Of a stretch of 55,444 bases of DNA, positions 23,452-51,384 are shown in pieces. The first letter of the stretch is position 1; each line of letters starts with the position of its first letter. Origin of the DNA: a virus (taxonomy: Duplodnaviria > Caudoviricetes); the IMG/VR virus record IMGVR_UViG_3300014848_000022, positions 1-55,444 of that record; one strand, written 5' to 3'. The notes under the pieces are model-generated. The model ran no database searches. It worked only from the letters and a program-made list of their open reading frames with translations, and was not told where the DNA came from. The translations under genes were made by a program, and so were the position numbers.

Positions 23452-23706
23452 TCAGGCCGCCAAGTCCTTGAAGCCGGGCGGCGTCCAGAGCCGGGTGCGC
23501 TTGGCCTGCCCGGTCTTGATCAGGTAGCGGCCCAAGCTGTCAGGAACCTTGGCCGCGCCGTTGATGAAACAGACCTCGAACGTGATCGGCTCGCCAGATT
23601 CGGTCAGCCAGTCGCTGGCGATCACGCCGCCGGTGAATCTGGGGTCGGCTGCGGGCGCGACGTACATGGTGTGGTTTCGGCGCTCGCCGGGATAGTAGAC
23701 GCGCAT
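23452..23706 (-). CDS. Hypothetical virion-region protein
   Basis: 84 aa, phage-like codon use, between capsid and adaptor. Confidence 0.6.
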   Translation of the reverse strand: MRVYYPGERRNHTMYVAPAADPRFTGGVIASDWLTESGEPITFEVCFINGAAKVPDSLGRYLIKTGQAKRTRLWTPPGFKDLAA

Positions 23707-23717
23707 CAGGATGCCCC

Positions 23718-23750
23718 AAAGAAAAAGGCCGCCCCCCTAAGGAGCGGCCC
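23718..23750 (-). terminator. Rho-independent terminator after capsid/HNH genes
   Basis: GGGCCGCTCC-TTAG-GGGGGCGGCC followed by TTTTTCTTT. Confidence 0.75.
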
Positions 23751-23796
23751 AGGCTGTCGCTTGGCTGAAAGGGAAGGGGATCAGCCGGCGGTGACG

Positions 23797-24501
23797 TCAG
23801 AGCAGAAGACCCTGACGCTGCATAAAATCGATCGGATCGGAAGCGCGCTTGCGGCAATTGCAAGGCTTGCAGGTCCATTGCAGGTTCCTGCGGTCGTTAG
23901 AGCCTCCGCGCGACAGCGGGACAATATGGTCCAGTTCGCCGCCGCCGTTAAGCTTCGTCTTGCAGATTGCGCAGCGATCACGCTGCAATCGTCTGATTTC
24001 TTGAATATCCTCAAAGGTATGCCTTCCGCCGTTGCCGTTTTTCAGCGCCTTGCGGTTGGCAAAATAGGTCTTGTACGCGTCCCGGTTCTTGCGGCGGTAT
24101 TCACGATACCATGCTCGCATAGCTTCGGGGTCTTTGGCGCGGCGCGCTCGGTTCTGCGCGTTCACCAGCTCGCGGTTCGCTTGCCGGTAGACCCGAACGC
24201 GGCGCAAGTCATCCGCGCGCAACGATGGGTCAGCGCGCCACTGCTCTCTAGCGCGACGACAAATTTCGTCTCGGTTTTCAGCCCGGTAAGATCGGACCGC
24301 CGTTCTCGCTCGTTCAAGGTTGGCTGCGCGCCAGTCGGCGGCACGACGTCGGTGCCTTTCCGATTGTTCGGCCCGCTTGGCGGTCATGCAGGCTTTGCAA
24401 TGGGAGCGAGGCGCCTTTCGATCACCCCGACAATAGTACGCGCTATGCGGTTTTTCCGCTCCGCAACTGGCGCAAATCTTGGTAGGCTCAGCGTTAGCCA
24501 T
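23797..24501 (-). CDS. Free-standing HNH endonuclease
   Basis: N-terminal KICASC...HCKAC zinc motif, Arg-rich helix, CAIC...LDHIVPLSRGGSNDRRNLQWTCKPCNCRK. Confidence 0.92.
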   Translation of the reverse strand: MANAEPTKICASCGAEKPHSAYYCRGDRKAPRSHCKACMTAKRAEQSERHRRRAADWRAANLERARTAVRSYRAENRDEICRRAREQWRADPSLRADDLRRVRVYRQANRELVNAQNRARRAKDPEAMRAWYREYRRKNRDAYKTYFANRKALKNGNGGRHTFEDIQEIRRLQRDRCAICKTKLNGGGELDHIVPLSRGGSNDRRNLQWTCKPCNCRKRASDPIDFMQRQGLLL

Positions 24502-24504
24502 CTT

Positions 24505-24595
24505 GCTGGTCCTTCAGCTAGATCGGTTAGAGGCCGGGTTGCGCTGCTAACGCGCCCGGCCTCGCCAATATAGCCGAAAGAACAGCAAAAGTAAA
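24505..24595 (-). promoter_or_regulatory. Sigma70-type promoter and structured leader of HNH gene 2
   Basis: TTTACT(24595-24590)-17 nt-TATATT(24572-24567), hairpin 24530-24563, TAACC, then small hairpin GCTG-AAGGAC-CAGC. Confidence 0.7.
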
Positions 24596-24598
24596 ACG

Positions 24599-25627
24599 TT
24601 AGCCGGCGGTTACCGTGGGGCGGACAACCGCAACAACTGCATGAGCTGCGTCGGCTCGTTTCGCAACAATGGCGCTGAAATGGATTCCCACATACTGGCC
24701 CTGCAAGCCAGCCAGCAGGCCAAGCTGGAAGATGCGCGGCTTGAGGTTGCCGTCGCCCCCATGAACCACCGGGCGCTCGATCATCTTCTCGGTCATGATG
24801 ACCGCGAAATAATTCGAGTTGCCCGAGCCGGGCGCCGAGAAGCCATAGCTGGCGTCGGTGGTGGCGGGAAGGAACGGGTCGGGGATCAGCGGCAGGTCGC
24901 CCGCCTGCGTGCTGATGTATTTCACCGTGACGCCCGCCGTCACCTCGGCGGTACGCAGGTCGATGTGCGCGGCCTTGGCTTCACGGTCGATCAGGTCGTT
25001 CAGGATCGGGTTGATATAAATCGCGGTCGGGCGAACGGCCTGCGTGGTGTTGGCCAGCATGGCCGCGACCTTGGCCTTGATGCCGTCGATGATCGAAGCG
25101 CCCAGGCCAATCGTAGCCTGGTTGGTGATCTGGGTCAGCAGCCCGCAGAAGCTCTGCGTCGAGCTGTCGGTGATCGCCGTGGCCGTGCCGCTCCAGACCG
25201 CCGCCGCTTCGGTGATCGTGATACCCGACACGATGTCTTCGATGTCCTTGGATTCGACGTAGGAGAACTGGCCCTGCATGCGGGTAACGTCCACATCGAA
25301 CAGGCCGAAATTGGTCTGCGCGGTGACGGCCTTGATGTAGACCGAGCGCTCGGTGCGGGTCGGGCCCGACGCGGAGGGCGAGATCGAGCGCGGATCGGTG
25401 AACGTACCGGTCGCGATCGCGGTCTGGTCGAAGAAGCGGTGCGGGTGGCCGGTCGCCTGGGTTTCCGGGTTGCGGGAGAGGAAGATCGATTCGCGACGAA
25501 CGATATCGACGATTTCGGTTTCATACCGGTTCACCTCGATCGCGCCATTGCCGAGATAATCGGCGGCGGCCTTGAGCGAGATGAACTGAGCTTCGCTGAC
25601 GCGGTCGCCAGTGGCTGCAATGTTCAT
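24599..25627 (-). CDS. Major capsid protein
   Basis: 342 aa after protease/scaffold, strong codon bias, GVTVKYISTQAGDLPLIPDPF HK97-like C-terminal pattern. Confidence 0.85.
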   Translation of the reverse strand: MNIAATGDRVSEAQFISLKAAADYLGNGAIEVNRYETEIVDIVRRESIFLSRNPETQATGHPHRFFDQTAIATGTFTDPRSISPSASGPTRTERSVYIKAVTAQTNFGLFDVDVTRMQGQFSYVESKDIEDIVSGITITEAAAVWSGTATAITDSSTQSFCGLLTQITNQATIGLGASIIDGIKAKVAAMLANTTQAVRPTAIYINPILNDLIDREAKAAHIDLRTAEVTAGVTVKYISTQAGDLPLIPDPFLPATTDASYGFSAPGSGNSNYFAVIMTEKMIERPVVHGGDGNLKPRIFQLGLLAGLQGQYVGIHFSAIVAKRADAAHAVVAVVRPTVTAG

Positions 25628-25655: not shown

Positions 25656-27059
25656 TCAGTCGATCAGGCCGTTGCGGGCCATCTCGGTCTTCATCTGGAT
25701 GCGCTGCTGCATGGACAGGCCGGAGGCGCGCAGGGCTTCGTCCAGCTTGGCCACAGGCATCTTCTCGCCGTCACCCGGCGCCGCGATGTTGGCCTTGGCC
25801 ATCAGCGCGCTGATTTGCGGCGAGAGCGTCTTGCGCTGCGGCTCGGGCGAGGTATCGCGCTTGGCGGCCTGGATACCTTCCAGCTTGGTCGAAAGATCGC
25901 CGATCTGGGCCTTGAGCGCGGCAACTTCCGGGCTTTCGGTCGGCGCCGTCGCACCGCCATCACCCTTCTCGGCGCCGGCGTAGAATCCGCCGTTCCAGTC
26001 GTGGTCGCGATAGATATGCGGCAGCGTTCCGGCCATGGCCTCGGCCTCCATGTTGTCGGCCATGCGATTCAGCACGGCGACATGGCCGCGCGTCGAATGA
26101 ACGCCGATACCGGCAGCCTGCATGGACGCGGCGCAGGCGCGCAGGGTATCTGCATGCGGCGCGACCTTGGCGTGCAGCTCCTTGCCGGCCTCGATCTTGC
26201 TGCCCAGTTCGTTGTGGCTGGCCTCGACCTTGTCGAGGCGTTCGGTCACGGGCTTGAGCGCGGCGGCCAGCACCGCTTCCAGTTCTTCCTTGGTCATGGG
26301 GAAATCCTCGATTGCTGCCGGGGCATTTTCAGCCGATGCGGCGAGCGACGTGGTGGTGTAGGCGGCCTTGTCCTTGAGTAGGATTGCGGCGCCAGTGAAC
26401 ACGCAGGCGGTGATGACCAAGGGGTCCGATTCAAGGTCTTCAACAAGGATTTGTTGCGCTTCAAAACTGAAGCCCAGGGCGTTCTTGTTGGCCTTGATCT
26501 CGGCGGCTTCCTCGGGGAAGTCGGCTGCGTAAATGAAGCCTTCAATCCGCAGATCGGAGCCTTCGACGGTGGCGCCGGTGATGACGCCGATCTTCGCGCG
26601 GACATCGTGCCCGTCGAAATTGGGGGTATAGTCAACGGCCATCAGGGCCAAACTGTCGAGCGCGGCCTCGGCCGCCTCAGCGGTCAGCAGCACGCGCTTT
26701 CCGCCCGAACCGTGTGGCGCATTGTCCGAAGGAATGCCGACCCGCGTCAGCACGCCAGAGAACGGCATGCGGTTGGGGTGGTCCTGCACGTCCGGGACCA
26801 CCAGCGCCATGGCATCGATGCGCATGGCGCTGATCTTTTCCCAATCGGTCGTATCCATGCCCAGTTCATGGGCTCGGCGAATGATGCGTCGGCGCGCCTC
26901 AGCCCTTTCTTCGACGGTCAACCCCTGCGTGCGCGAAAGCTGCGACCATGCGAGGCGGGTGTGCCGTTCGTCAGGCATGGGAAGCTTGCGCTTGCCCGGC
27001 ACTGCGAATTGTTCGCTGGGCAGGGCCTCGCGCTGCTCCTTGGTCAGTGGCGCCGTCAT
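25656..27059 (-). CDS. Prohead protease/scaffold fusion
   Basis: N-terminal REALPSEQFAVP domain, protease-like H...GFSFE...FTGAAIL region, coiled-coil C-terminus; start MTAPL. Confidence 0.75.
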   Translation of the reverse strand: MTAPLTKEQREALPSEQFAVPGKRKLPMPDERHTRLAWSQLSRTQGLTVEERAEARRRIIRRAHELGMDTTDWEKISAMRIDAMALVVPDVQDHPNRMPFSGVLTRVGIPSDNAPHGSGGKRVLLTAEAAEAALDSLALMAVDYTPNFDGHDVRAKIGVITGATVEGSDLRIEGFIYAADFPEEAAEIKANKNALGFSFEAQQILVEDLESDPLVITACVFTGAAILLKDKAAYTTTSLAASAENAPAAIEDFPMTKEELEAVLAAALKPVTERLDKVEASHNELGSKIEAGKELHAKVAPHADTLRACAASMQAAGIGVHSTRGHVAVLNRMADNMEAEAMAGTLPHIYRDHDWNGGFYAGAEKGDGGATAPTESPEVAALKAQIGDLSTKLEGIQAAKRDTSPEPQRKTLSPQISALMAKANIAAPGDGEKMPVAKLDEALRASGLSMQQRIQMKTEMARNGLID

Positions 27060-27072
27060 TGCTGGATGAGCC

Positions 27073-27576
27073 TCAGAGGTGCGAGCGGGCGAAGGCGAGG
27101 GCGGCACCAAGCTCGCCCTCCACTTCACCTTCCAGGCCGCGCACAAAGTCCTTGAACTCGTGCCAGCGCAGCGCAAGCTGGGAGACCAAACTTTCATGCG
27201 GGCGCGGCGGCGCCACACTGATGGCGTCGGGATCAGCCGGGGCATCCGCCAGCGCCACGGTGATCGAGCCGCCCGCTGTCAGCAGTTCGCTGTCGGCTTC
27301 GGAGCCATCCACGGCGGGATTGCTGGAGGGGGGGGCTCCCGGCGCATCGCTGGGAGCGCCTTCAGCGGCCTTGGCGGCAGCGGCTGCGCCCTCCGGATGC
27401 CCGGAGATTGCCGCCCCAAGCGCGGCGATCGCACCCTTGCGGTTCGGGCCAGCCTGCTCCGCTTCGAGTGCGGCGTTCAGGGTGTCGAGGTCGACGCCGT
27501 CAAGGTGGGCTGCGAGAAGAGCCACGGGCATGGCGACGAGAGCGGCGGCATCCGCCTGGATGGTTTCCTCGCTCAT
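27073..27576 (-). CDS. Ala-rich hypothetical protein
   Basis: ATGA-coupled within the head operon; LEAEQAGPNRKGAI motif. Confidence 0.6.
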   Translation of the reverse strand: MSEETIQADAAALVAMPVALLAAHLDGVDLDTLNAALEAEQAGPNRKGAIAALGAAISGHPEGAAAAAKAAEGAPSDAPGAPPSSNPAVDGSEADSELLTAGGSITVALADAPADPDAISVAPPRPHESLVSQLALRWHEFKDFVRGLEGEVEGELGAALAFARSHL

Positions 27577-27883: not shown

Positions 27884-29233
27884 TCAGTCCTTGGTCTGGT
27901 CGGCGGCATCGCGCCGGAGGGCGGGTTTGTCGTCGGGCACTGCGGGGTCGAGCACGCGCTTGCTGCCCGTTGCGGCGGCGCGGGCGATTTCAGCTTCGGT
28001 CGAGGTGAGGTTTGAGAACGGCGTGTTCAGCGGCGGCCGACCGCGCGTCTCACGGTATTCGTCCGGCGTGATCGCGTTGGCCTTGTATTCGATCGCATAG
28101 ACCTCGGCCGTGCGCTTTTCGTCTTCGCGATCAAGGCCGATGAAGCGGAACTCCAGCTGCCAGAATCCAAGGCGGCGGTGGAGCGCATGGCGCGTCAGAT
28201 AGGCCGCCAGTTCCTTGGCTCGTGGCTTGATCGCCTGATCCCAGTCCCGTTCTTGCGCTACCTCGCCGGTACTGCGGTTCACATCGCGCTCGATACCCAG
28301 GTTCTGCGGGCTCAGATCAAAGGCGGTGGCAATTTCAGATTTCAGAAAATCCTGATATTTCAGATAGAGCGCGCTGTCGCCTTCCGGGTACAGCCTGTGC
28401 ACATTGCTGCCCTTGGTGCCCGTGATAGGCACCTTGCCTTGTCCTTCGACCTCGGCGGTCCAGTAATTGCGGAAGGCGGCGACGGTCTTCTCGTCCGTGC
28501 CTTCGCCCAGATCGAGCATGATTCCGGGCCGGGCGTTGCTGGTCAGGTTCCCGGCGAACTCGCCGACGCCCAGCTGGCGCGCGATCGAGGTGAATGCCAC
28601 CTCAAGGGGCCCCAGGCCAAAAGGGCTGGCCGTGGTCGGATTGGGCCGGATATAGATCAGCTCATCGTCGCGCAGATCGATCCTGATCCCGCCGCCGGTA
28701 TACGCCCCATAGCCCACCGACTGCGCGTAGCGCGCCTCATCGGGTTTTCCAGACCATCCGGGATAGACCTGGATCGAAAGGCCATCTGCGGCATAGAGCC
28801 AGAGCGGGCGGAGCGGATCCCCCGACATCTGCGTTTCGATCGCGCCGGCGCCAACGAGGATGTCTTCGATCACCTGCTCAGCCAAGCTGCGCCAGGCGTC
28901 ATCGGCATTCGGGTTCTTGAGGCAATAGGTCGCAATTTCGGCTTGCCGCTGCAACTCGCGGCTTTCCTTCACACCCGGCGCCGGGACGATTTCCCAATCC
29001 AGTTCGACGATCGGGTTCTTGATCGCGTTGATCGCCCGGCGGGCATAGGGCGTCTGAGCGAAATAGCGCAGGTTGCGCGGCGTGGCCTTCCAGACCAGAC
29101 GTGATCCTGTGTGCCCTTGCCCCATAGGTGCGTAGTTCGGGAACGGATTGGTGTCGCGCTTGGGCTGCGCCGGGCGTCGCCCGAAACGAGCGCGCTTGAG
29201 GCCTTCAGCAAGGATCGAGCCGAACGAGGCCAT
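27884..29233 (-). CDS. Portal protein
   Basis: FGLGPLE, IATAFDLSPQNLG and ITPDEYRETRGRPP motifs; follows TerL. Confidence 0.92.
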   Translation of the reverse strand: MASFGSILAEGLKRARFGRRPAQPKRDTNPFPNYAPMGQGHTGSRLVWKATPRNLRYFAQTPYARRAINAIKNPIVELDWEIVPAPGVKESRELQRQAEIATYCLKNPNADDAWRSLAEQVIEDILVGAGAIETQMSGDPLRPLWLYAADGLSIQVYPGWSGKPDEARYAQSVGYGAYTGGGIRIDLRDDELIYIRPNPTTASPFGLGPLEVAFTSIARQLGVGEFAGNLTSNARPGIMLDLGEGTDEKTVAAFRNYWTAEVEGQGKVPITGTKGSNVHRLYPEGDSALYLKYQDFLKSEIATAFDLSPQNLGIERDVNRSTGEVAQERDWDQAIKPRAKELAAYLTRHALHRRLGFWQLEFRFIGLDREDEKRTAEVYAIEYKANAITPDEYRETRGRPPLNTPFSNLTSTEAEIARAAATGSKRVLDPAVPDDKPALRRDAADQTKD

Positions 29234-49446: not shown

Positions 49447-49725
49447 ATGACCACCGCCACCCTACTGCGCCTGACCGATCCGGCTGCTGCCGAGGCGACC
49501 ATGGCCGTCATCGTCAACCGCCACCTTGAGATGAAGCGCACCATCACCGCAGACGACACGCTCGCTGACTTGGGCATCATCTGCGAGGCGCACCTGATCA
49601 GCATCCAGTGCGACGTGGAGGAGCAGTTGGTCGGCGATGAGCTGCCCCATGGCGCCGTGCGCGCCGACATGACGCTGGCTGATCTGGTGGCGCTGGTCGA
49701 GAGCACGCTGGGGAGGGCGGCATGA
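49447..49725 (+). CDS. Acyl carrier protein-like protein lacking the DSL serine
   Basis: ITADDTLADLG...DVEEQL.GDELP...MTLADLVALVE follows the ACP helix pattern; SD GGAG. Confidence 0.6.
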   Translation: MTTATLLRLTDPAAAEATMAVIVNRHLEMKRTITADDTLADLGIICEAHLISIQCDVEEQLVGDELPHGAVRADMTLADLVALVESTLGRAA

Positions 49726-50900
49726 CTATGACTTATGGCAGCATCTGCTCGGGCATTGAGGCGGCCAGCGTGGCTTGGCACGCGCTCGGATGGCGCCCGG
49801 CCTTCTTTTCCGAGATTGAGGCCTTTCCCTGCGCCGTTCTGGCGCACCGCTTCCCCGCCGTGCCCTGCCATGGCGACTTCACCACCATCGGGGCCGATCA
49901 ATATGGACCAATTGACCTTCTTGTCGGAGGAACCCCCTGCCAGTCGTTCAGCATCGCAGGCCTTAGAGGCGGACTGGACGACAGCCGTGGCAACCTCGCG
50001 CTTGAATTTCTGCGCCTTGCTGATCGCAAGCGCCCCCGATGGCTGGTCTGGGAGAACGTCCCCGGCGTCCTGTCGTCGAACGGAGGACGGGACTTTGGTT
50101 CCATCCTCGGGGGCATGGTCGAACTCGGGTATGGCGTCGCCTACCGAGTCCTGGACGCTCAGCACTTTGGAGTTCCACAGCGGCGCCGTCGCGTCTTCGT
50201 TGTCGGATATCTTGGAGACTGGCGCCGTGCCGCAGCAGTTCTTTTTGAGCGCCACAGCCTGTCGGGGCATTCTGCGCCGCGCCGCCAAGCGCGGTCGGCA
50301 GTTGCCGCCCTCACTGCAAACGGCGTTGGAACATGCGGCGTAGATGACAATCAAGGACAGGCCGGGCACCTGATCCCCGATATCGTAGGCCAAGCAATGA
50401 GCGCAAAGTGGGCCAAGGGCACGGCAGGGCCGGCAGGGGACGAGCACCACAATCTGATACCGGTAGCGTTCCCTGCTGAAATGTCCGGCACGCAATGCGC
50501 CTCTGCCGTAGATCGATCTCCCGCGCTGTCTGTCACGCACACGATGGCTGTGGCCTACCCGCTCCAAGAAGTCGGCAAGCGTACTGGCGTGAGCACTGAT
50601 GACCATCGCGCAGGTATCGGAATCGGCGGTGAGGCTGATCCCATGTTTACGCTGCAAGCCGGTGCACAGCATGGTGTTGGTACTGCCCATGCCGTCCGCC
50701 GCCTGACGCCCACGGAATGCGAGCGCTTGCAAGGCTTCCCCGATGGCTGGACCGACGTTCCCCATCGAGGAAAGCCTGCCGCCGACGGCCCACGCTACAA
50801 GGCGCTGGGTAACAGCATGGCCGTGCCCTGTATGCTTTGGCTGGGCCAGCGCATCCAACAGGTCGAAAATCTTGCCAGGGAGACGGCCTATGCCGCGTAG
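49722..50900 (+). CDS. DNA (cytosine-5) methyltransferase
   Basis: CSGIEA, GGTPCQSFS, ENV, QRRRRVF, RRLTPTECERLQGFPD and LGNSM. Confidence 0.96.
   Translation: MTMTYGSICSGIEAASVAWHALGWRPAFFSEIEAFPCAVLAHRFPAVPCHGDFTTIGADQYGPIDLLVGGTPCQSFSIAGLRGGLDDSRGNLALEFLRLADRKRPRWLVWENVPGVLSSNGGRDFGSILGGMVELGYGVAYRVLDAQHFGVPQRRRRVFVVGYLGDWRRAAAVLFERHSLSGHSAPRRQARSAVAALTANGVGTCGVDDNQGQAGHLIPDIVGQAMSAKWAKGTAGPAGDEHHNLIPVAFPAEMSGTQCASAVDRSPALSVTHTMAVAYPLQEVGKRTGVSTDDHRAGIGIGGEADPMFTLQAGAQHGVGTAHAVRRLTPTECERLQGFPDGWTDVPHRGKPAADGPRYKALGNSMAVPCMLWLGQRIQQVENLARETAYAA
49903..50343 (+). CDS. Nested alternative-frame ORF, putative second methyltransferase polypeptide
   Basis: 146 aa in the +1 frame ending SSLSDILE...FFLSATACRGILRRAAKRGRQLPPSLQTALE. 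Confidence 0.65.
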   Translation: MDQLTFLSEEPPASRSASQALEADWTTAVATSRLNFCALLIASAPDGWSGRTSPASCRRTEDGTLVPSSGAWSNSGMASPTESWTLSTLEFHSGAVASSLSDILETGAVPQQFFLSATACRGILRRAAKRGRQLPPSLQTALEHAA

Positions 50901-51384
50901 TCCCGACGAAGTGCGCAAGGCGAAACGCGAGTTCATGGCCCGCAAGCGCGCCGAAGATCCCGATGGCGCGCGCGCCTACAGCCGGAACTATCACCAGCGC
51001 AATCGAGAAAAGCAACTCGACAAGATGCGCAGCTACTACGCCCGCCGCTTTTTTTGGGGACGGGCCATGAAGTTGCGTGGTGCGGGGAAAGCTTCGACCG
51101 CAGATTTGGCGCGGCTTTGGAAGTTGCAGCGCGGTCAATGCGCCATGACCGGGCGCCGTCTCACGCGAGACACAGCCCATCTTGATCACATCGTTGCGAA
51201 GGCACGTGGGGGGACAGATGCGATCGGCAATCTTCGTTGGGTTTGCACAGAGGCCAACCTCGCCAAGCGCGAATTGAGCGACGCTGAGTTTCTGGCGCTG
51301 TGCTCTGACGTCATGGCTTGGATCGGAAACCGTATCGCGATGGTCGAGGCCATCACGGATGCGGCGCGAAAAGTCGTCGCATGA
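50890..51384 (+). CDS. Free-standing HNH endonuclease
   Basis: QRGQCAMTG...HLDHIVAKARGGTDAIGNLRWVCTEANLAK; SD GGAG. Confidence 0.88.
   Translation: MPRSPDEVRKAKREFMARKRAEDPDGARAYSRNYHQRNREKQLDKMRSYYARRFFWGRAMKLRGAGKASTADLARLWKLQRGQCAMTGRRLTRDTAHLDHIVAKARGGTDAIGNLRWVCTEANLAKRELSDAEFLALCSDVMAWIGNRIAMVEAITDAARKVVA

What the first reader, a model, noticed from the sequence alone, without database searches (positions are those of the whole stretch)
23781..24712. HNH gene 2 sits inside the capsid gene 3' end, with a recoded replacement upstream and the old last codons stranded downstream
Seen: the capsid gene ends GTA ACC GCC GGC TAA (VTAG stop, 24613-24599). One base after the HNH stop is GTC ACC GCC GGC TGA (VTAG stop, 23795-23781), followed by the capsid-type terminator. 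The copies match at 13/15 nt and both differences are synonymous. By hand count, 16 of the last 37 capsid codons end in A/T versus 5 of the preceding 43. Established: free-standing homing endonucleases in T4-like phages travel with cleavage-resistant alleles of neighbouring genes. Inference: an intron-less, intein-less insertion into an essential gene that repairs it with a recoded end and marks the target site.
Basis: partly seen in the sequence, partly recalled or inferred. Interest (0 to 1): 0.85.

Follow-up and report, generated by a model that had tools for sequence, protein, structure and literature searches.

The report
HNH cassette replaces capsid gene end
A selfish nuclease gene has landed inside the last few codons of a prophage's major capsid gene and brought its own differently spelled copy of the gene's end, so the capsid protein stays whole; this trick was described before in fungal mitochondria.

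Summary
The capsid ORF (24599-25627, minus strand) ends GTA ACC GCC GGC TAA. The HNH ORF is 23797-24501. One base after its stop comes GTC ACC GCC GGC TGA (23795-23781), then a terminator. The A/T-ending codon counts, 16 of 37 versus 5 of 43, are exact.

None of 28 related loci has an HNH gene after the capsid gene. The closest relative, L004, has a GC3-rich capsid end running into exactly GTC ACC GCC GGC TGA and a homologous terminator.

About 892 nt (24688-23797) are foreign to the relatives:
- a synonymous rewrite of capsid codons 314-342;
- a 97-nt spacer folding into a 39-bp hairpin that buries the HNH ribosome-binding site and start codon, with a promoter-like site in its 5' arm;
- the HNH gene.

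The gene is an HK97-fold major capsid protein.

My reading is a free-standing homing-endonuclease cassette that carries a replacement gene end. This matches the mobile endonuclease ORFs of fungal mitochondria, with T4-like translational control. Cleavage, homing and immunity are inferred, not shown. No second HNH-bearing locus could be fetched.

The parts
24599..25627 (-). Major capsid protein gene, 342 aa, HK97 fold, complete and uninterrupted
   Evidence: ORF. SU10_MCP Pfam hit at E 2.4e-4, below the curated cut-off. 10 of 12 close relatives hit SU10_MCP at E <= 0.01, and 12 of the 46 members of alignment A3 at E <= 0.001. AlphaFold model with 46 sequences: pLDDT 85.6. Foldseek top hits are phage capsids and encapsulins, including HK97, at probability 1.00 and E 3e-12 to 2e-9. 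The gene lies downstream of the portal gene 27884-29233 (phrog_2662).
24690..24709 (-). Longest run identical to L004 in the last ~325 nt of the capsid gene (20 nt); likely left crossover point, immediately before the rewritten tract
   Evidence: 20-nt identical run at 24709..24690. Identity in 30-nt windows falls from 24-27/30 before it to 20-21/30 after it.
24599..24688 (-). Rewritten capsid end: codons 314-342 plus stop TAA. Same protein, different codons
   Evidence: Against L004, 21 of 27 same-amino-acid codons differ here, versus 80 of 274 in alignment columns 1-305 (p = 1e-6). Amino-acid differences are 2/29 versus 31/305. GC3 is 15/29. Third-position changes: 14 GC-to-AT, 6 GC-to-GC, 2 AT-to-GC. 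Best nucleotide identity to any sampled relative is 72-76%; the L004 tail has 80-88% to its relatives.
24599..24613 (-). Functional copy of the 15-nt gene end, GTA ACC GCC GGC TAA
24499..24591 (-). Long RNA hairpin (39 bp in five stacked stems) in the 97-nt spacer. It pairs the HNH Shine-Dalgarno GAAGGA (24515-24510) and the AUG (24501-24499)
   Evidence: MFE -60.9 kcal/mol, shuffles -33.6 +/- 3.8, z = -7.27, 0 of 200 shuffles as stable. The spacer has no homolog in any relative locus.
24567..24595 (-). Sigma-70-like promoter match TTTACT-17-TATATT inside the 5' arm of the hairpin. A transcript started here would lack the arm that hides the ribosome-binding site
   Evidence: 9 of 12 consensus positions. 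It was the only match in 2.4 kb, and shuffles gave a mean of 0.6, so it is weak on its own.
23797..24501 (-). Free-standing HNH endonuclease gene, 234 aa
   Evidence: Pfam HNH_5 at 3.9e-11 and HNH at 3.7e-8, both above their cut-offs. phrog_1035 at 8e-25 and 15 further HNH or endonuclease VII PHROGs. PDB 4h9d HNH endonuclease at 6e-5, with the D-H...N...N and Cys pairs aligned. GC3 is 142/226 = 0.63, against 0.76-0.89 in neighbouring genes.
23781..23796 (-). Stranded native capsid end: C + GTC ACC GCC GGC TGA, the last 4 codons and stop, no longer part of any gene product
   Evidence: Identical to the last 15 nt of the L004 capsid gene. BLAST aligns L004 4014-4027 twice, to window 24614-24601 and to 23796-23783.
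23716..23780 (-). Native post-capsid spacer and intrinsic terminator (stem 23750-23726, then a T run), now behind the HNH gene
   Evidence: terminator scan. 86% identity to the region right after the L004 capsid stop. All 12 first relatives have a GC-rich hairpin sequence right after the capsid stop, read by eye and not scanned.
23452..23706 (-). Next gene of the head module (84 aa, MRVYY...). In relatives it follows the capsid stop after 50-145 nt

Best explanation
A free-standing HNH homing-endonuclease cassette sits inside the 3' end of the prophage's major capsid gene. About 892 nt (window 24688 to 23797, minus strand) are foreign relative to all sampled relatives. The segment has three parts.

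1. A replacement for capsid codons 314-342 and the stop. It encodes almost the same 29 residues, but nearly every codon is changed and the third positions are AT-rich, like those of the HNH gene.
2. A 97-nt spacer that folds into a very stable hairpin. The hairpin buries the HNH ribosome-binding site and start codon, and a promoter-like site lies in its 5' arm.
3. The HNH gene.

The segment ends 15-16 nt before the native stop. The old last four codons, the stop and the native terminator are therefore left behind it.

Shown here: the anatomy, the empty site in relatives, the codon statistics, the hairpin, and the HK97 fold of the host gene.

Inferred:
- The enzyme nicks or cuts HNH-free capsid alleles in or near the native 3' end.
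- Repair from an HNH-bearing genome copies the cassette in. The left crossover falls inside the capsid gene, and a 20-nt identical run abuts the boundary. The right crossover falls in the stranded end, terminator or next gene.
- The rewritten end keeps the essential capsid protein intact. It differs from the native end at 27 of 90 positions, which protects the carrier from its own enzyme and from loss by repeat recombination.
- On the long capsid transcript the hairpin keeps HNH translation off. Transcripts started inside the hairpin would be translated, as for T4 I-TevI, segB and Aeh1 mobE.

I take the rewritten end to be part of the travelling cassette, as in fungal mitochondrial mobile endonuclease ORFs, rather than rewritten on the spot.
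For: Empty sites:
- 12 of 12 first relatives go from the capsid stop to the next gene within about 60-90 nt.
- 0 of 28 loci examined have an HNH homolog within the downstream sequence available.
- The L004 record, 91% complete, has no HNH homolog anywhere.

Breakpoints: BLAST against L004 leaves window 24600-23797 unmatched and aligns L004's last 14 nt twice. The alignment shows the same.

Rewriting:
- Synonymous codon differences are 21/27 in codons 314-342 versus 80/274 in alignment columns 1-305. Amino-acid differences are 2/29 versus 31/305 (p = 1e-6).
- Only 6 of 27 codons are identical to L004. Full saturation under host codon usage predicts 13.8 (P = 0.001). HNH codon usage predicts 10.0 (P = 0.06).
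- Tail GC3 of 0.52 is not different from HNH GC3 of 0.63 (p = 0.31), but differs from the rest of the capsid gene at 0.86.
- The closest capsid proteins in the large database (93%, 91%, 91% identity) all carry the L004-type tail residues.

HNH gene:
- It is intact, with the catalytic motif.
- The family sits in unrelated contexts elsewhere; L016 has it in a replication module.

Hairpin: z = -7.27. Promoter-like site. The T4 parallels are in PMC2988022 (passages read).

Host gene: HK97-fold capsid. Strands 309-318 and 330-337 are modelled at pLDDT 92-93 and overlap or lie within the replaced part, so the end is not dispensable.

Precedent: PMC3630166 describes endonuclease ORFs that carry a foreign C-terminal gene part, with the native C-terminus downstream. 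There nucleotide identity is 64-81% but protein identity is 94-100%.
Against: - There are no cleavage or homing data.
- No second HNH-bearing locus could be fetched, so it is not shown that the rewritten end travels with the HNH gene. Close HNH proteins exist on other contigs, but the tool that fetches them is closed.
- The closest empty allele is only 86% identical in DNA, so the left breakpoint is approximate.
- The stranded piece is short. A 15-mer with up to 2 mismatches recurs by chance in 5 of 100 shuffles.
- Smaller GC3 dips occur in the tails of some HNH-free relatives: L042 -0.22, L037 -0.20, L047 -0.19, against -0.34 here. Part of the dip could be a family trait.
- No donor allele was found. 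The best nucleotide identity of the tail to any relative is 72-76%, and a 40-nt exact search of the viral collection found nothing.
- The tail's protein sequence sits within the closest subclade. This is awkward for import from a distant donor.
- The promoter match is weak (9 of 12), and the host's promoter types are unknown.
Confidence: 0.7

Rival explanations
1. The cassette landed in the intergenic spacer just after the capsid stop and made a 15-bp target duplication, as a transposon-like or staggered-cut insertion would. The AT-rich codons upstream are then unrelated to the insertion: a local family trait or drift.
For: Relative to L004, the unmatched DNA is an 804-nt block flanked by two copies of the 15-mer. 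By symmetry that fits a duplication. Milder GC3 dips exist in the tails of some HNH-free relatives.
Against: The block has no transposase and no terminal inverted repeats. The left copy shares the direction of change of the rewritten tract it adjoins (GTC to GTA, TGA to TAA). The right copy is identical to L004 and continuous with the native terminator. The rewritten tract is contiguous with the insert and has the largest GC3 drop of all 29 loci, the window plus the 28 relatives. Its codons fit HNH usage better than host usage.
Confidence: 0.1
2. The same cassette anatomy holds, but the capsid end was rewritten in place after the insertion. Possible drivers are selection for escape from the enzyme, selection against recombination with a once-longer duplicated end, or mutagenic repair. 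On this view the end was not imported with the cassette.
For: The tail protein is 27/29 identical to the closest relatives. It carries the KRADAAH motif that, among the 12 first relatives, only L004, L005, L008 and L009 share. Both amino-acid changes are Val to Ile by G-to-A. 14 of 22 third-position changes go from GC to AT. No donor allele was found.
Against: Transitions to transversions are 10:13, as in old divergence: the rest of the gene has 43:41. One serine codon switched family, TCG to AGC. HNH-free relatives show no raised synonymous rate in the tail: L004 versus L005 is 9/28 versus 80/259. The published fungal cases are read as import (PMC3630166).
Confidence: 0.2
3. The HNH protein is a working part of the phage, either a packaging HNH as in HK97-like cos phages or a weapon against competing phages. 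On this view it is not a selfish homing element, and its place after the capsid gene is incidental.
For: HNH proteins assist terminases in some phages. This is stated in the discussion of PMC12724721; the primary paper, Kala 2014, was not read. A second HNH gene in the window shows that the phage tolerates such genes.
Against: The gene is absent from 28 of 28 related loci and from the whole 91%-complete L004 record. It does not lie beside the portal gene, and the terminase was not located. Its composition is foreign. Its translation signals are buried in a hairpin.
Confidence: 0.05
4. The arrangement is an assembly artefact or chimera.
For: None was found.
Against: The identical HNH protein was seen on 10 contigs, the longest 103,863 nt. 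A 5-residue variant lies on a 23,889-nt contig. Both ORFs are intact, and the junctions are in register with homologous sequence in L004.
Confidence: 0.02

Closest known systems
Mobile endonuclease ORFs (mORFs) of fungal mitochondria that carry a foreign C-terminal gene part: Allomyces macrogynus atp6; Glomus sp. atp6, atp9, cox2, nad3. Source: PMC3630166, passages read. The original Allomyces paper is cited there as its reference 48 and was not read.
   Same: An endonuclease ORF lies directly behind a replacement C-terminal coding part. The native C-terminal part is left downstream. The replacement differs strongly in nucleotides (64-81% there, about 70% here) but hardly in protein (94-100% there, 27/29 here). 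In cox2 and nad3 only part of the end is replaced, as here.
   Different: Those enzymes are LAGLIDADG or GIY-YIG and are often fused in frame to the host gene. Here the enzyme is an HNH in its own ORF behind a stop, a regulatory hairpin and its own ribosome-binding site. The host there is a mitochondrial genome; here it is a prophage capsid gene. The stranded native piece is only 15-16 nt, not a full duplicate.
Free-standing homing endonucleases of T-even phages, 'intronless homing' (SegF, SegG, SegB, MobE). Source: PMC2988022, passages read.
   Same: A free-standing HNH or GIY-YIG gene lies next to an essential gene and is present only sporadically. Flanking DNA is co-converted. The ribosome-binding site is hidden in a stable hairpin, with a promoter placed so that its transcripts lack the inhibitory arm.
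   Different: The T4 genes sit between genes and cut at a distance. None of the passages read describes a cassette that enters a coding region and supplies a replacement gene end.
Endonuclease insertions that split phage genes: Aeh1 nrdA with mobE; T4 topoisomerase genes 60/39 with mobA; phage 25 gene 43. Source: PMC2988022.
   Same: A free-standing endonuclease gene has entered the coding region of an essential phage gene without an intron or intein.
   Different: There the host gene survives as two polypeptides that reassemble. Here it survives as one polypeptide because the cassette brings the missing end.
Integrating elements that carry a replacement 3' gene end: phage 21 and e14 in icd; islands in tRNA genes. 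Recalled, not checked in any call.
   Same: The incoming DNA restores the end of the target gene with a diverged copy and strands the old end.
   Different: Those elements use an integrase and att sites. The 892-nt segment here has no integrase or other ORF besides the HNH gene.
Packaging HNH proteins of HK97-like phages. Mentioned in PMC12724721; primary paper not read.
   Same: A small phage-encoded HNH protein in the head or packaging region.
   Different: Those are conserved in all members and lie beside the terminase or portal gene. This one is absent from all 28 relatives and lies after the capsid gene.

Membership tests
HNH endonuclease (Pfam PF01844 / PF14279) | Profile match above the curated cut-off | tested here: met
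   HNH_5 scores 43.1 bits (cut-off 27.5). HNH scores 33.8 bits (cut-off 21.4).
HNH endonuclease (Pfam PF01844 / PF14279) | Catalytic His preceded by Asp, downstream Asn residues, and flanking Cys pairs | tested here: met
   The alignment to PDB 4h9d shows LDHIVPLSRGG...RRN...CKPCNCRK aligned to the corresponding residues. This is by sequence only.
Free-standing homing endonuclease gene (intronless homing) | Sporadic presence among close relatives, with a clean empty site | tested here: met
   0 of 28 related loci have it. The L004 empty site is mapped to the base.
Free-standing homing endonuclease gene (intronless homing) | Not embedded in an intron or intein | tested here: met
   No group I or II intron family was among the 3 sub-threshold Rfam matches at E <= 1. 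The capsid ORF is complete to its last residue without splicing. The HNH gene is a separate ORF.
Free-standing homing endonuclease gene (intronless homing) | Site-specific cleavage or nicking of the endonuclease-free allele, and resistance of the carrier allele | not testable with these tools
   Needs an enzyme assay.
Free-standing homing endonuclease gene (intronless homing) | Over-inheritance with co-conversion of flanks in mixed infection | not testable with these tools
   Needs a cross. The only indirect sign is the foreign tract contiguous with the gene.
Fungal-type mORF with C-terminal replacement | Replacement C-terminal coding part directly upstream of the endonuclease ORF, with the native C-terminal part downstream | tested here: met
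   The native remnant is only 15-16 nt.
Fungal-type mORF with C-terminal replacement | The replacement is diverged in nucleotides but conserved in protein | tested here: met
   61/87 nt identical but 27/29 aa identical to L004.
Fungal-type mORF with C-terminal replacement | LAGLIDADG or GIY-YIG enzyme in a mitochondrial genome | tested here: not met
   This is an HNH enzyme in a prophage. It works like a mORF but is not a member of those lineages.
Packaging HNH (HK97 gp74 type) | Conserved across related phages and adjacent to the terminase or portal gene | tested here: not met
   Absent from 28 of 28 relatives. It is separated from the portal gene (27884-29233) by two genes.
HK97-fold major capsid protein (the host gene) | HK97 fold | tested here: met
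   Model pLDDT is 85.6. Foldseek finds phage capsids, including HK97 2fs3, at probability 1.00 with TM 0.46-0.68 normalised by query length. The Pfam SU10_MCP match of the protein itself is below the cut-off, at 21.2 versus 24.1 bits.
Integrase-borne element with a replacement gene end | Integrase and att sites within the element | tested here: not met
   No ORF other than the HNH gene lies in 24598-23797.

The most novel reading that the evidence does not exclude
The rewritten capsid end is a selected module of the selfish element rather than a passive hitch-hiker. On this reading the HNH cuts the GC3-rich native end at or near the codon 338/339 junction, where its gene now sits. The cassette-borne end is kept different at synonymous sites as an immunity determinant. 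Its least-changed last 10-13 nt directly abut the HNH promoter-like site and would serve as an uncleavable operator for autorepression, as I-TevI uses a look-alike of its homing site. That would be a bacterial-virus counterpart of the fungal mORF, with a built-in immunity and operator segment inside an essential structural gene.
Probability: 0.2. Interest if true: 0.75.

Novelty: new variant of a known kind. Interest (0 to 1): 0.55.

Why it matters
Homing endonuclease genes that enter coding regions are known to survive in three ways: inside introns, inside inteins, or by splitting the host gene in two. A fourth way, bringing a replacement gene end, is documented for fungal mitochondria.

My full-text searches and the T4 review passages I read found no phage or bacterial example. 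The library is incomplete and supplements were closed, so this is no proof of absence.

If the reading is right, three things follow.
- It shows how a selfish nuclease can invade the most conserved structural gene of a tailed phage at no cost to the capsid.
- It gives a precise, testable target site and a predicted immunity sequence.
- It explains a type of local codon-usage anomaly at gene ends that annotators could use to find more such cassettes.

Tried and rejected
Searches that found nothing useful:
- tblastn of the capsid protein against the phage records found no match.
- The genome-contig scan with the single capsid protein found nothing. With alignment A1 it gave only 6 distant loci at 47-66% identity.
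- The HNH protein in viral contigs and metagenome contigs gave only 28-31% relatives in unrelated contexts. No second HNH-bearing capsid locus was obtained.
- An exact 40-nt search for the rewritten tail in viral contigs gave 0 matches.
- BLAST of the tail and the spacer against all fetched loci found no donor. The best tail identity was 72-76%, and the spacer gave only chance hits.

Structure and family work:
- The first AlphaFold run, with 12 close sequences, failed at pLDDT 33.1 and was not used. It was repeated with 46 diverse sequences.
- The A1 profile against PDB sequences gave nothing significant; the best E-value was 0.23.
- The Rfam matches in the region are all far below gathering scores and were ignored.

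Weak leads not used as evidence:
- I looked for a longer stranded remnant upstream of the 15-mer. The last 21 nt of the HNH gene match L004's capsid codons at 11 of 21 without gaps (my count). That is too weak to claim.
- A 14-nt inverted repeat (24696-24709 and 23864-23877) lies in two conserved coding motifs. I treat it as chance.
- The transition/transversion ratio does not separate import from rewriting in place.

Side checks:
- The relatives hold only a different, short HNH match elsewhere (G002 and G004).
- A homolog of the methyltransferase next to HNH gene 1 in G001 was too distant to give an empty site.
- PMC4162613 did not bear on the question.

Tools not available:
- The look-up of sequencing runs was unreachable at all 7 tries, so read laying was never used. 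No read-level or RNA evidence was obtained.
- The look-up of encoding contigs was stated to be closed and was not called.
- Supplements of papers were not consulted. Tables S1-S4 of PMC3630166 may hold the exact identities that I quote from its main text.
Full report
WHAT IS THERE

The window is an IMG/VR provirus record. On the minus strand the head module reads as follows:
- portal gene (27884-29233; phrog_2662 at 1.5e-32);
- a 529-aa ORF (25656-27245);
- a 342-aa ORF (24599-25627);
- a 234-aa ORF (23797-24501);
- an 84-aa ORF (23452-23706).

The 342-aa protein hits Pfam SU10_MCP only below the cut-off (21.2 versus 24.1 bits). Its identity as a capsid protein rests on further evidence:
- 10 of 12 close relatives hit the same family at E <= 0.01.
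- 12 of the 46 members of alignment A3 hit it at E <= 0.001.
- The nearest named clusters in the ESM Atlas are SU10/HK97 capsid clusters.
- An AlphaFold model built on 46 sequences reached pLDDT 85.6.
- Foldseek matched that model to phage capsid proteins and encapsulins, HK97 among them, at probability 1.00 and E 3e-12 to 2e-9.

It is therefore an HK97-fold major capsid protein. The 234-aa protein is an HNH endonuclease. It scores above the cut-off for both HNH_5 and HNH, matches 16 HNH or endonuclease VII PHROGs, and aligns to PDB 4h9d with the catalytic motif in place.

THE OBSERVATION

- The capsid gene ends GTA ACC GCC GGC TAA (24613-24599).
- One base after the HNH stop lies GTC ACC GCC GGC TGA (23795-23781).
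- The two differences are synonymous.
- A terminator follows at 23750-23726.
- 16 of the last 37 capsid codons end in A/T, against 5 of the preceding 43.

GC3 is 15/29 in codons 314-342 and 263/307 in the rest of the gene (p = 4.8e-5). G+C in 150-nt windows mostly lies between 0.53 and 0.61 across about 23750-24750, with a rise to 0.61-0.65 in the middle of the HNH gene. It is 0.62-0.69 on both sides.

THE EMPTY SITE

A scan of the viral collection with the capsid protein gave 12 relatives at 66-90% amino-acid identity. In 12 of 12 the capsid stop is followed within about 60-90 nt by a GC-rich hairpin and the next gene, with no HNH gene.

A wider scan with an alignment gave 23 viral loci. Genome contigs gave 6 more. 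L020 was dropped because its capsid gene runs off the locus. That left 28 loci, and 0 of 28 have an HNH homolog in the downstream sequence held. Details of those 28:
- 26 have at least 1.4 kb downstream.
- L021 has only 159 nt downstream.
- L049 has a broken or misframed capsid end.
- L019 and L043 are probably the same prophage, and L031 and L032 are near-identical, so the number of independent relatives is somewhat lower.

The whole L004 record, 91% complete, has no HNH homolog.

L004 is the closest relative, at 90% amino-acid and 86% nucleotide identity. Its capsid gene ends ...CGT CCG ACC GTC ACC GCC GGC TGA and runs into a spacer and terminator that align with window 23796-23717 at 86%. 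BLAST leaves window 24600-23797 without a counterpart and aligns L004's last 14 nt twice, once to each copy.

THE REWRITTEN END

Identity to L004 is 24-27 of 30 in 30-nt windows up to a 20-nt identical run at 24709-24690. It then falls to 20-21 of 30.

From codon 314 onward, 21 of 27 same-amino-acid codons differ from L004, against 80 of 274 upstream (p = 1e-6). Amino-acid differences are 2 of 29 against 31 of 305.

Only 6 of 27 codons are identical to L004. Complete synonymous saturation under the host's codon usage predicts 13.8 (P = 0.001). The HNH gene's codon usage predicts 10.0 (P = 0.06). Tail GC3 of 0.52 resembles HNH GC3 of 0.63 (p = 0.31) and differs from the 0.76-0.89 of neighbouring genes.

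HNH-free relatives show no such excess in the tail. L004 against L005 gives 9/28 in the tail versus 80/259 upstream. The window's GC3 drop of -0.34 is the largest of the window and its 28 relatives. The next largest are -0.22, -0.20 and -0.19.

In protein terms the tail belongs to the closest subclade. The three nearest capsids in the 5.8-billion-protein search (93%, 91% and 91% identity) end like L004, give or take one or two residues (P0125 identically). The window differs from L004 by two Val-to-Ile changes, both at positions that vary among relatives.

No sampled relative is a plausible nucleotide donor. The best tail identity is 72-76%, whereas L004's tail has 80-88% to its relatives. An exact 40-nt search of the viral collection found nothing.

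In the structure model, residues 309-318 and 330-337 are beta strands with pLDDT 92-93. The replaced part is thus an integral piece of the fold, and cutting it off would not be harmless. That last step is inference.

THE SPACER

The 97 nt between the capsid stop and the HNH start codon have no homolog in any relative. They fold into a hairpin of 39 base pairs with an MFE of -60.9 kcal/mol. Shuffles gave -33.6 +/- 3.8, so z = -7.27, and 0 of 200 shuffles were as stable.

The Shine-Dalgarno GAAGGA (24515-24510) and the A and G of the AUG are paired with the 5' arm. The only sigma-70-like match in the 2.4 kb scanned, TTTACT-17-TATATT (24595-24567, 9 of 12 positions; shuffles gave a mean of 0.6), lies inside that 5' arm. 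A transcript started there would lack the inhibitory arm.

The T4 review describes this layout for I-TevI, I-TevII, I-TevIII, segB and Aeh1 mobE (PMC2988022, passages read). The hairpin is a computed result. The promoter and the regulation are inference.

WHAT IT IS AND HOW IT MOST LIKELY WORKS

About 892 nt (24688-23797) form a foreign segment. It consists of a replacement capsid end, a regulatory spacer and the HNH gene. It stands in place of native codons 314 to about 338, and the native last four codons, stop and terminator lie right behind it.

I read it as a free-standing homing-endonuclease cassette. It is absent from all relatives, has foreign composition, encodes an intact enzyme, and sits in a highly conserved gene. 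Members of the same HNH family lie in quite different contexts; L016 has one in a replication module.

The inferred cycle is as follows.
- The enzyme nicks or cuts HNH-free capsid alleles in or near the native 3' end.
- Recombinational repair from a carrier copies the cassette in. One crossover falls in the capsid gene and the other in the stranded end, terminator or next gene.
- The rewritten end keeps the capsid protein whole.
- Because it differs at 27 of 90 positions, it is not a substrate for the enzyme and not a partner for deletion between repeats.

Whether the end was imported with the cassette (my preference, about 0.55) or rewritten in place (about 0.2) cannot be settled here. Codon usage and the published precedent favour import. 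The close protein similarity and the lack of a donor favour rewriting in place.

COMPARISON WITH WHAT IS KNOWN

The closest known system is the mobile endonuclease ORF of fungal mitochondria. According to PMC3630166 (passages read), Allomyces atp6 and Glomus atp6, atp9, cox2 and nad3 carry an endonuclease ORF preceded by a foreign C-terminal gene part, with the native C-terminus downstream. Nucleotide identity there is 64-81% and protein identity 94-100%. In some cases only part of the end is replaced.

The present case has the same anatomy and the same signature. It differs in four ways:
- the enzyme family (HNH);
- the enzyme has its own ORF with T4-like translational control;
- the host is a prophage capsid gene;
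- the native remnant is very short.

The T4 literature I read describes free-standing endonucleases between genes, and insertions that split genes into two polypeptides (PMC2988022). It does not describe a replaced gene end. PMC10448857 reports that endonuclease genes often lie near capsid genes, but no such repair. Four full-text searches turned up no phage example. The library is partial and supplements were closed.

Integrase-borne elements that restore a target gene's 3' end (phage 21 and e14 in icd; recalled, not checked) are analogous in outcome but use a different machinery. The segment holds no integrase.

VERDICT

The enzymology and the immunity role remain inference. It is a new variant of a known kind. 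It is of moderate interest because it offers an exact, testable target and immunity sequence in an essential phage gene.

Noticed in passing
window 50890-51384 (+), with 49722-50900 (+): There is a second HNH gene, 37% identical to HNH gene 2 over residues 106-227. Its start codon overlaps the last 11 nt of a 392-aa ORF that looks like a C5 cytosine DNA methyltransferase by its sequence motifs; I did not run it against Pfam. Whether the methyltransferase end is also rewritten or stranded could not be judged, because the only homolog in the relatives is 37% identical.
   Followed up: partly
L004 4093-4370: The closest HNH-free relative has about 280 nt of its own between the capsid terminator and the next head gene, with no counterpart in the window. 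The spacer after the capsid gene is thus a repeated landing place for extra DNA.
   Followed up: no
window 24696-24709 and 23864-23877: A 14-nt inverted repeat, 13 of 14 complementary. One arm lies in the invariant capsid GLQGQ codons just before the rewritten tract. The other lies in the HNH WTCKP zinc-motif codons, 67 nt before the right junction. It is probably chance.
   Followed up: no
window 23797-23817 against L004 3993-4013: The last 21 nt of the HNH gene match the capsid codons that precede the 15-mer in L004 at 11 of 21 without gaps. With a 1-nt shift, CTGAC matches CCGAC. This may be a trace of microhomology at the original right junction, but it is too weak to claim.
   Followed up: partly
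L049 (IMG/VR contig start), capsid homolog: The capsid reading frame ends after 137 codons with an unrelated C-terminus. This could be a frameshifted or broken capsid gene, or a frame error at the contig start.
   Followed up: no
protein P0259 (224 aa): A database protein whose residues 120-224 are 91% identical to the capsid's last 105 residues, while its first ~119 residues do not match the capsid. It may be a miscalled start or a rearranged capsid gene in another genome.
   Followed up: no
HNH cluster members P0121 (107 aa), P0123 (141 aa), P0122 (196 aa): Shorter proteins identical to the C-terminal parts of the HNH protein are on record from long contigs of 86 kb and 97 kb. They may be alternative start calls or N-terminally damaged copies, which would be the decay stage of a homing endonuclease.
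   Followed up: no
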